The position numbers were made by a program, and so were the translations under genes. A stretch of 18,695 bases of DNA from a virus. Lineage: Duplodnaviria > Heunggongvirae > Uroviricota > Caudoviricetes. This document shows, piece after piece, positions 17,288 to 17,527 of the stretch (position 1 is the first letter of the stretch; each line of letters begins with the position of its first letter). A model generated the notes under the pieces. That model had not been told where the DNA came from and did no database searches. It worked only from the letters and a program-made list of their open reading frames with translations. The stretch lies in IMG/VR virus record IMGVR_UViG_2609459839_000004, one strand, 5' to 3'.

Positions 17288-17462
17288 AACATAAAAAAAT
17301 CCCGCAGTGATCGCGGAGCTGCGGGGACAGACAAATGAAGATCAATGTGAAGGAGTTGTTTTTGTTACTCGGGCAAAAAAACACTAACGCAGCGAAATTA
17401 TAAGCGCCACAGTCAGTGTGTGAAAATGTGAAGATATTCAGAAATTTTATTCCGTCATGACG

Positions 17463-17492
17463 CAGGCACCCGGTGAGGTGCCTGTTGTTTTT
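17463..17492 (+). terminator. Intrinsic terminator inside the I-J spacer, just upstream of J
   Basis: 8-bp perfect stem caggcacc/ggtgcctg, 6-nt loop, followed by ttgttttt. Confidence 0.5.
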
Positions 17493-17527
17493 GTGAGTGA
17501 ACAATTATCACGGTAAGAGGTGATGTA

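What the first reader, a model, noticed from the sequence alone, without database searches (positions are those of the whole stretch)
17288..17527. 240-bp spacer between I and J with two opposed terminator hairpins
Lambda tail genes are tightly packed, but here I and J are separated. The spacer holds a 7-bp-stem hairpin (cccgcag...ctgcggg, 17301-17325) preceded by an A run, which reads as a minus-strand terminator, and a strong plus-strand terminator (17463-17492) immediately before the J ribosome-binding site. A 21-codon ORF starts at 17335. This could be a small RNA locus, a remnant of inserted cargo, or a transcription insulator.
Basis: seen in the sequence. Interest (0 to 1): 0.4.

Follow-up and report, generated by a model that had tools for sequence, protein, structure and literature searches.

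The report
Known prophage small RNA gene pasB

Summary
The I-J gap is 240 bp and contains a minus-strand terminator (17301-17325, then U7) and a plus-strand terminator-like hairpin (17462-17495).

The spacer is 100% identical to the I-J spacer of prophage PP6 in EPEC E2348/69. There the 83-nt Hfq-dependent sRNA PasB was mapped and shown on Northern blots. PasB corresponds to window 17375->17293 on the minus strand, and its published probe matches 17298-17320 exactly. So the minus-strand hairpin is the PasB terminator. A near-consensus sigma-70 promoter (TTCACA-16-TATAAT, 17424-17397) lies upstream.

Divergent alleles of the same cassette sit in the I-J spacers of Stx phages and of Sakai prophages Sp11, Sp14 and Sp15. 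There they very probably correspond to EcOnc22-24. The family occurs in 1825 of 5426 complete E. coli genomes and is never annotated.

The 22-aa plus-strand ORF is not conserved as a coding sequence. The plus-strand hairpin shows a compensatory change, and phage lambda has a counterpart at the same position.

The most conserved block of the spacer (17424-17467) contains a CRP-like site. This is a hypothesis only.

Verdict: already known and of modest interest. PasB's function is still unknown.

The parts
17293..17375 (-). pasB, an 83-nt Hfq-dependent sRNA, using the boundaries published for the identical E2348/69 sequence
   Evidence: Window 17260-17545 is 286/286 identical to NC_011601.1 1466228-1466513. 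PasB is mapped there at 1466343->1466261 on the minus strand. Its Northern probe AATCCCGCAGTGATCGCGGAGCT equals window 17298-17320.
17301..17325 (-). PasB intrinsic terminator stem-loop (7-bp stem CCCGCAG/CUGCGGG), followed by U7 at 17299-17293
   Evidence: The stem is invariant across about 46 sRNA alleles while the loop varies. One allele, L023, has the compensatory pair CCCACAG/CUGUGGG.
17397..17424 (-). Predicted sigma-70 promoter P1: -35 TTCACA (17424-17419), 16-bp spacer, -10 TATAAT (17402-17397). It predicts a start near 17390 and a 98-nt RNA.
   Evidence: 11 of 12 matches. The -10 is kept as TATAAT, AATAAT, TATCAT or GATAAT in most alleles but not all; L018 and L033 lack it. The -35 is not conserved in the BP-4795 or Sp15 alleles.
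17381..17386 (-). Alternative -10 (TAGTGT), correctly spaced for the published 5' end at 17375/17374
   Evidence: Read from the sequence. A TAnnnT motif is present at this position in every allele class. Which promoter is used is unresolved.
17427..17442 (.). CRP-like site TGTGA-N6-TCAGA (9 of 10 core positions)
   Evidence: The half-sites are invariant and the centre of the spacer varies in 40 terminator-anchored spacers. No binding test was possible.
17443..17461 (.). Highly conserved block AAATTTTATTCCGTCATGA of unknown role, possibly an UP element or operator
   Evidence: Mean pairwise identity is 0.93 for 17438-17467. That equals the flanking coding DNA and exceeds the sRNA body, which scores 0.63-0.80.
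17462..17495 (+). Plus-strand terminator-like hairpin with T-run, about 30 nt upstream of the J start codon
   Evidence: At stem position 7 the copies carry C-G (54), U-A (25), U.G (10) or a mismatch (2). PPompW-type spacers replace it with a different strong hairpin. Lambda has a hairpin at the equivalent place.
17335..17403 (+). 22-aa ORF antisense to pasB; not a gene
   Evidence: The start codon is ATG in only about half of the copies and ACG or ACA in the rest. Lengths range from 5 to more than 45 aa, and frameshifts are common.
16607..17287 (+). Tail assembly gene I (context)
   Evidence: Pfam Lambda_tail_I; annotation in E275a and E2348/69.
17528..18166 (+). 5' fragment of tail tip gene J (212 codons), then a junction to unrelated tail-fibre-assembly DNA (context)
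   Evidence: Pfam FNIII-A_GpJ. The match to intact J ends at window 18162. The segment after the junction maps 6.6 kb away in strain E275a.

Best explanation
The spacer is a small, self-contained transcription unit set backwards between tail genes I and J. It sits next to a hairpin that is an older feature of the I-J junction.

Shown, partly from published work on an identical sequence: the minus strand encodes PasB, an 83-nt sRNA ending at the hairpin 17301-17325 plus U7. In EPEC it accumulates in an Hfq-dependent way while the surrounding tail genes are almost silent. It was recovered on Hfq joined to many mRNAs.

Inferred: PasB is made from its own sigma-70 promoter in the lysogen, independently of late transcription. 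It acts in trans as an Hfq-dependent base-pairing regulator of host and accessory mRNAs. The likely pairing regions are the conserved single-stranded core AAYUCCUUA..UUAAUCUUCAU and/or the segment just 5' of the terminator. The PasB terminator also stops this antisense transcription 5 nt before gene I.

Inferred: the plus-strand hairpin before J is selected as a structure. It most likely stops RNA polymerase that lacks the Q antitermination factor, or stabilises the upstream message. If so, J would be made only during Q-driven late transcription.

Hypothesis: the invariant TGTGA-N6-TCAGA site puts pasB under cAMP-CRP control.
For: - **Identity.** The window is 286/286 identical to the E2348/69 I-J spacer. 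Published PasB coordinates, its 83-nt length and its Northern probe all map onto it.
- **Expression in EPEC.** The RNA-seq mean count (DESeq2 baseMean) for pasB is 482 in DMEM and 1082 in overnight LB. The log2 change in the hfq deletion is -6.8 and -2.4 respectively. Genes I and J give mean counts of only 4.8 and 15.
- **Published validation.** Northern blots confirmed the size and the dependence on Hfq, and RIL-seq (sequencing of RNA pairs ligated together on Hfq) gave 37 interactions.
- **Promoter and terminator.** Both are predicted on the minus strand.
- **Allele family.** Alleles in Stx phages and Sakai prophages keep the terminator stem, a -10 element and a core motif, while the rest of the body varies.
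- **EHEC counterpart.** The Hfq cross-linking (CRAC) peaks EcOnc22, 23 and 24 lie in the I-J spacers of Sp15, Sp14 and Sp11 on the PasB strand. EcOnc22 is about 85 nt on a Northern blot and is destabilised without hfq. An AgvB anchor gives a shift of +137 to +146 between the old and new Sakai coordinates, which places those peaks inside the PasB-like gene.
- **Plus-strand hairpin.** It folds with z = -3.5 and shows a two-sided compensatory change. Lambda has a hairpin at the same position.
- **CRP idea.** The half-sites are invariant and the spacer centre varies. Spot 42, which CRP represses, behaves opposite to PasB across the two growth conditions.
Against: - **No expression data exist for this strain.** The prophage in the window is heavily deleted, although the cassette itself is intact.
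- **The 5' end is unresolved.** The consensus promoter predicts a 98-nt RNA, but 83 nt is reported.
- **No target motif is known for PasB.** The authors found none. My one duplex test against a RIL-seq partner did no better than shuffled sequence: 52 of 500 shuffles were as good.
- **The CRP site is oddly placed.** Its centre is at -44.5 relative to the consensus promoter and about -60.5 relative to the reported 5' end. Neither is the textbook -41.5 or -61.5. At the level of the whole window, one-mismatch CRP matches are not enriched: 2 found against 0.78 expected. The two growth conditions also differ in growth phase and medium, not only in glucose.
- **The EcOnc22-24 link has one assumption.** It rests on a coordinate shift measured at 1.94 Mb and applied at 2.17-2.90 Mb.
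- **Termination at the plus-strand hairpin was not measured.** The consensus scan did not call lambda's hairpin a terminator.
Confidence: 0.85

Rival explanations
1. PasB works mainly in cis. It is perfectly complementary to the late polycistronic mRNA between I and J. During lytic growth it would pair with that message and trigger cleavage or alter the I-to-J expression ratio. Its trans contacts would be secondary.
For: The gene is fully antisense to the I-J intergenic part of the late transcript, and its terminator lies 5 nt from the I stop codon. Its position is strictly conserved in every allele.
Against: It is abundant in lysogens in which I and J are almost silent. RIL-seq recovered it with many unlinked mRNAs. 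The duplex would lie about 150 nt upstream of the J ribosome-binding site. The sRNA body is the most variable part of the spacer, yet any allele would stay complementary to its own phage, so conservation cannot decide the matter.
Confidence: 0.15
2. The spacer is mainly a pair of opposed terminators acting as an insulator. On this view the RNA is a by-product without a regulatory role.
For: There are two terminator-like hairpins of opposite polarity. A hairpin before J is kept even where the sequence is replaced, as in PPompW-type spacers and in lambda.
Against: A strong promoter aimed at the minus-strand terminator has no use in a pure insulator. The RNA is Hfq-bound, depends on Hfq for stability and has many partners. 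A conserved single-stranded core is kept across alleles.
Confidence: 0.1
3. The plus strand encodes a small 22-aa protein, MKINVKELFLLLGQKNTNAAKL.
For: An ATG ORF exists at 17335-17403. One phage record annotates its homologue as a hypothetical protein. The first eight residues look similar across alleles.
Against: The start codon is ACG or ACA in roughly half of the copies. Lengths run from 5 to more than 45 aa, frameshifts change the C-terminus, and the stop codon is not conserved. The only Shine-Dalgarno-like bases lie inside the hairpin stem. The N-terminal similarity is explained by the conserved sRNA core on the other strand.
Confidence: 0.03
4. The spacer is non-functional filler or a decaying remnant of inserted DNA.
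For: RefSeq annotates nothing there in any genome. No Rfam family matches.
Against: Parts of the spacer are as conserved as the flanking coding DNA. Both hairpins show compensatory changes. Transcripts have been published for an identical sequence.
Confidence: 0.03

Closest known systems
PasB sRNA of EPEC E2348/69 (Pearl Mizrahi et al. 2021, PMC8550237; distribution study by Zhu, Shabalina and Storz 2026, bioRxiv 10.64898/2026.05.13.724894)
   Same: The sequence is identical over the whole spacer, and position, strand and terminator are the same. The window carries the E2348/69 allele, with C at position 27. The commoner PasB-2 has A there.
   Different: Nothing differs in sequence. The prophage around it in the window is heavily deleted. 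The papers give no promoter or regulator, and they describe PasB variants as differing by only a few nucleotides.
EcOnc22, EcOnc23 and EcOnc24 of EHEC O157:H7 Sakai (Tree et al. 2014, PMC4104026, Table S2)
   Same: They are Hfq-bound RNAs on the strand antisense to the tail genes, in the I-J spacers of Sp15, Sp14 and Sp11. EcOnc22 is about 85 nt and is destabilised without hfq. Those spacers have the same architecture and are about 77-80% identical to the window.
   Different: The sRNA body is a different allele. None of the papers I read makes the link to PasB. Here it depends on a coordinate shift inferred from one anchor.
AgvB and AsxR anti-sRNAs of EHEC prophages (Rfam RF02702, RF02703)
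   Same: They are also prophage-encoded, Hfq-dependent short RNAs with their own promoter and terminator, expressed from lysogens.
   Different: There is no Rfam match. They lie at the moron site downstream of the PR' promoter and gene Q, not between I and J. They are 51-60 nt with a conserved 3' part and a variable 5' seed. In the activating-condition RIL-seq rows I saw, no PasB-GcvB pair was listed.
I-J junction of phage lambda
   Same: It has a stable plus-strand hairpin just upstream of the J ribosome-binding site.
   Different: The lambda gap is only 60 bp and contains no antisense promoter or sRNA cassette.

Membership tests
PasB sRNA | Sequence matches the 83-nt pasB of E2348/69 and its Northern probe | tested here: met
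   286/286 identity across the spacer. The probe equals window 17298-17320.
PasB sRNA | Located between tail assembly gene I and tail tip gene J, antisense to them | tested here: met
   Table S6 gives the orientation as '(> <) >'.
PasB sRNA | 3' stem-loop followed by a U-tract (intrinsic terminator and Hfq site) | tested here: met
   7-bp stem plus U7.
PasB sRNA | Expressed, and dependent on Hfq for accumulation | not testable with these tools
   Published for the identical sequence in EPEC. No data exist for the source of this window.
EcOnc22-24 (EHEC Sakai) | Same locus type and homologous sequence | tested here: met
   All three peaks fall in I-J spacers on the antisense strand. The Sp15 spacer aligns with the window along its whole length.
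EcOnc22-24 (EHEC Sakai) | The Hfq peak coincides with the PasB-like gene rather than with the hairpin near J | tested here: inconclusive
   In current Sakai coordinates the peaks lie 22-84 nt from the J start. The AgvB anchor shows that the old coordinates are offset by +137 to +146 at 1.94 Mb, which would move the peaks into the sRNA gene. The offset at 2.17-2.90 Mb was not measured.
AgvB/AsxR anti-sRNA family | Match to Rfam RF02702 or RF02703 | tested here: not met
   No hit at the gathering threshold or at E <= 10. The same model finds AgvB in Sakai.
AgvB/AsxR anti-sRNA family | Location at the moron site downstream of Q and PR' | tested here: not met
   The element lies in the tail operon.
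Intrinsic terminator (plus-strand hairpin before J) | G+C-rich stem followed by a T-run, with the structure conserved | tested here: met
   Compensatory C-G to U-A change.
Intrinsic terminator (plus-strand hairpin before J) | Actually terminates transcription | not testable with these tools
   Needs Term-seq or in vitro transcription.
CRP-dependent promoter | TGTGA-N6-TCACA site with conserved half-sites | tested here: met
   9 of 10 core positions. Half-sites invariant, spacer centre variable.
CRP-dependent promoter | Site centred near -41.5 or -61.5 from the start point | tested here: inconclusive
   -44.5 from the start predicted for TATAAT; about -60.5 from the reported 5' end. The true start is unknown.
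CRP-dependent promoter | CRP binding and cAMP dependence | not testable with these tools
   There is only an indirect hint: PasB is higher in overnight LB, whereas Spot 42 is higher in DMEM.
Small protein gene | Conserved start codon, reading frame and length | tested here: not met

The most novel reading that the evidence does not exclude
The I-J junction of lambdoid prophages is a fixed slot for a fast-diversifying sRNA cassette. PasB and EcOnc22-24 would be alleles of one family, present in about a third of E. coli genomes and in up to 11 copies. The alleles share a promoter, a terminator and an anti-Shine-Dalgarno-like core, but differ in the rest of the body. All would be wired to cAMP-CRP through the invariant site at 17427-17442. 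The adjacent invariant block and the pre-J hairpin would have a second role of their own, such as keeping J silent in lysogens.
Probability: 0.3. Interest if true: 0.45.

Novelty: already known. Interest (0 to 1): 0.25.

Why it matters
pasB is one of the most widespread prophage sRNA genes in E. coli. The broader spacer family occurs in 1825 of 5426 complete genomes. Yet no RefSeq record I saw annotates it, it has no Rfam family, and its function is unknown.

For annotation, the practical result is that this "gap" should be labelled as an sRNA gene. For biology, three leads are cheap to test and could help find what PasB does:
- the link between PasB and EcOnc22-24;
- the pattern of conserved core and variable flanks;
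- the candidate CRP site.

None of these would overturn current understanding.

Tried and rejected
- **AgvB-like anti-GcvB sRNA.** I suspected this from the C/A-rich stretch ACAAAAACAAC. I rejected it because there is no Rfam match, AgvB lies at the Q/PR' moron site, and no PasB-GcvB pair appeared among the RIL-seq rows I saw.
- **Coding potential of the plus-strand ORF.** Rejected.
- **A plus-strand short sRNA ending at the pre-J hairpin.** The scan found no plus-strand promoter. The only -10-like hexamer, GATATT, changes to GAAATT or GAGTTT in other alleles. No evidence supports it.
- **Finding the PasB seed from a RIL-seq partner.** I tested the RNA from the intergenic region next to pasA. 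The duplex energy was no better than shuffled sequence, with 52 of 500 shuffles as good. Only an 8-nt match, UGUCUGUC to GACAGACA, lies next to the ligation point.
- **Extracting the full PasB target list or the EcOnc22 probe.** I could not get either from the supplementary tables with the available look-ups.
- **Anchoring Sakai coordinates near 2.9 Mb.** Using EcOnc15 or the stx1 region failed. The AgvB anchor at 1.94 Mb worked.
- **Species range.** A scan of one genome per species found the conserved block only in E. albertii, plus three short contigs that are probably contamination.

Full report
**1. The observation**

Gene I (Pfam Lambda_tail_I, 16607-17287) and the 5' part of J (FNIII-A_GpJ, from 17528) are separated by exactly 240 bp. 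The consensus scan finds three features in the spacer:
- a minus-strand terminator, with stem 17301-17325 followed by seven U;
- a plus-strand terminator-like hairpin, 17462-17485 followed by a T-run;
- a minus-strand sigma-70 promoter matching 11 of 12 positions, TTCACA-16-TATAAT at 17424-17397.

The plus-strand hairpin folds at -19.7 kcal/mol (z = -3.5). The minus-strand hairpin folds at -12.6 kcal/mol (z = -2.25). The ORF at 17335 encodes 22 aa. Lambda itself has a 60-bp I-J gap, so the real excess here is about 180 bp.

**2. What it is**

No Rfam family matches the spacer at any threshold. My first lead was AgvB, and it was wrong. AgvB sits at the moron site downstream of Q, and its model does not hit here.

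The literature gave the answer. Table S6 of Pearl Mizrahi et al. 2021 maps an 83-nt sRNA called PasB in EPEC E2348/69, at NC_011601.1 1466343->1466261 on the minus strand. It lies between E2348C_1436 (gene I) and E2348C_1437 (gene J). The Northern probe is AATCCCGCAGTGATCGCGGAGCT. That probe is an exact match to window 17298-17320. Window 17260-17545 is identical at all 286 positions to the E2348/69 locus.

The window carries the E2348/69 allele, with C at position 27. The allele Zhu et al. call PasB-2 has A there and is commoner.

**3. Published behaviour of the identical sequence**

- The pasB RNA-seq mean count (DESeq2 baseMean) is 482 in DMEM and 1082 in overnight LB. It falls by 6.8 and 2.4 log2 units in an hfq deletion.
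- I and J give mean counts of about 5 and 15. The RNA is therefore made from a silent prophage by its own promoter.
- Northern blots confirmed its size and its dependence on Hfq. RIL-seq, which sequences RNA pairs ligated together on Hfq, found 37 interactions with core and accessory mRNAs.
- The function is still unknown, and no target motif was found for PasB.
- Zhu, Shabalina and Storz (2026) counted 1,158 PasB hits. They noted that PasB is embedded in a phage structural operon and is common in ETEC, EAEC and other strains. They proposed a seed just 5' of the terminator. They discuss neither a promoter nor EcOnc RNAs.

**4. Comparative analysis done here**

*Spread.* A sensitive search with the whole spacer finds it in 147 phage records. 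Of these, 124 are at 60-80% identity, and most are Stx phages. It is also in 1825 of 5426 complete E. coli genomes, at 5561 places and up to 11 per genome, and is never annotated. Among single-genome species representatives, only E. albertii has it outside probable contaminant contigs.

*sRNA alleles.* About 200 IMG/VR loci were collected, some anchored on the conserved block and some, independently, on the terminator. Together they give about 46 sRNA alleles in at least six classes.
- The terminator stem CCCGCAG/CUGCGGG is invariant while its loop varies. One allele carries the compensatory pair CCCACAG/CUGUGGG.
- A core AAYUCCUUA..UUAAUCUUCRU is conserved. It includes CUCCUU, the complement of a Shine-Dalgarno sequence.
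- The 5' part and the linker before the terminator vary.
- Mean pairwise identity is 0.63-0.80 across the sRNA body. It is 0.87-0.96 in the I and J coding DNA and 0.93 in the block 17438-17467.

*The ORF.* The plus-strand ORF is not conserved. Its start codon is ACG or ACA in about half of the copies, lengths run from 5 to more than 45 aa, and there are frameshifts.

**5. Link to EHEC**

Table S2 of Tree et al. 2014 lists Hfq cross-linking (CRAC) peaks EcOnc22 (Sp15), EcOnc23 (Sp14) and EcOnc24 (Sp11). EcOnc22 is about 85 nt on a Northern blot and is destabilised without hfq. In the current Sakai record all three fall in I-J spacers, on the strand antisense to the tail genes, at the same relative position. 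The Sp15 spacer has the same architecture as the window.

In current coordinates the peaks would sit over the hairpin near J. However, AgvB1 shows that the paper's coordinates are offset by +137 to +146 at 1.94 Mb. With an offset of 128-146, the peaks fall inside the PasB-like gene. I conclude that EcOnc22-24 are very probably alleles of PasB. I did not find this link in the papers I read, and a 2021 review still lists EcOnc22 with unknown targets. The offset at 2.2-2.9 Mb was not measured, so the link is strong but not proven.

**6. Promoter and regulation**

There are two candidate -10 elements.
- TATAAT at 17402-17397, with TTCACA as the -35, predicts a start near 17390 and a 98-nt RNA with a 5' U-run:A-run hairpin.
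- TAGTGT at 17386-17381 fits the reported 5' end at 17375/17374.

A TAnnnT motif is kept at the second position in every allele class. At the first position the -10 is kept in most classes, but L018 and L033 lack it. The 5' end therefore needs an experiment.

Just upstream lies TGTGA-N6-TCAGA (17427-17442), which matches 9 of 10 CRP core positions. In spacers collected without reference to this block, both half-sites are invariant and the centre of the 6-bp spacer varies, as expected for a dimeric factor. PasB is higher in overnight LB than in glucose-containing DMEM. Spot 42, which CRP represses, does the opposite.

Several points weigh against the CRP idea. The site is centred at -44.5 or about -60.5, not at a textbook position. 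One-mismatch matches are not enriched in the window as a whole. The two growth conditions differ in much more than glucose. An UP element (an A/T-rich promoter enhancer) is an alternative reading. I rate CRP control at about 0.35.

**7. The plus-strand hairpin**

At one stem position the copies carry C-G (54), U-A (25), U.G (10) or a mismatch (2). This is a two-sided compensatory change, so the structure is under selection. In PPompW-type spacers, which are about 340 bp, it is replaced by a different strong hairpin. Lambda has a stable hairpin at the same place (z = -2.9), although the scan does not call that one a terminator.

A hairpin before J is therefore older than the sRNA cassette. Its most likely role is to stop polymerase that lacks the Q antitermination factor, or to stabilise the upstream message. 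Neither role was tested.

**8. Verdict**

The element is the known sRNA gene pasB with its promoter and terminator, next to a conserved pre-J hairpin.

Novelty: already known. The modest additions are the PasB/EcOnc22-24 family link, the allele structure, the candidate CRP site, and the fact that the family is unannotated in a third of E. coli genomes. Interest is 0.25.

Noticed in passing
window 7494-8007: Three tRNA genes (7494-7566, 7577-7650, 7667-7740) are followed by a full-length match to the prophage sRNA STnc100 (7818-8007, 132 bits). Zhu et al. relate STnc100 to PasD. The window therefore carries two prophage sRNA genes.
   Followed up: no
window 1-18695, junction near 18162-18166: The window is a shortened version of a prophage. 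It maps at 99.7% identity, in 5 pieces, onto a 34.6-kb stretch of strain E275a. Most head and tail genes are missing. J stops after 212 codons and joins DNA that lies 6.6 kb away in E275a (DUF4376 and tail fibre assembly genes). No complete E. coli genome has this junction. It is either a deleted prophage or an assembly or sampling artefact.
   Followed up: partly
window 4248-5827: Adjacent ORFs encode a eukaryote-like Ser/Thr protein kinase (Pkinase, 2.8e-33) and a PP2C phosphatase (2.1e-14). A DUF968/HNH protein (1942-3126) and a DNA methylase (6395-7444) lie nearby.
   Followed up: no
window 17355-17365 and 17484-17494: The 11-nt direct repeat GTTGTTTTTGT occurs twice in the spacer. One copy is inside pasB, where it reads ACAAAAACAAC on the RNA. 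The other forms the T-run of the pre-J hairpin. This may be chance.
   Followed up: no
L137, L142, L144, L150, L152 and others (IMG/VR), about 95 nt after the PasB-type terminator: In a common rearranged class the sRNA body is intact up to ...CATTAAC, but its promoter, the CRP-like block and J are replaced by unrelated sequence (TCAGAGAGGGAGGATGTGCC...). These are probably promoter-less pasB remnants.
   Followed up: no
L030 and L038 (IMG/VR), between the pre-J hairpin and the J start: The heptamer TCAGACA upstream of the J ribosome-binding site varies in copy number: 2 copies in most spacers, 3 in L030 and 4 in L038.
   Followed up: no
L013, L014, L016 (GTDB genome contigs): The E. coli-phage block was found on short contigs (460-3408 bp) assigned to Asaia platycodi, Parendozoicomonas haliclonae and Streptomyces flavalbus. 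These are most likely contamination of those assemblies.
   Followed up: no
NC_002695.2 (Sakai), 1941920-1941981: Coordinates in Table S2 of Tree et al. 2014 are offset by about +137 to +146 from the current RefSeq Sakai record at this position. Anyone mapping EcOnc RNAs onto the current record needs a coordinate lift-over.
   Followed up: partly
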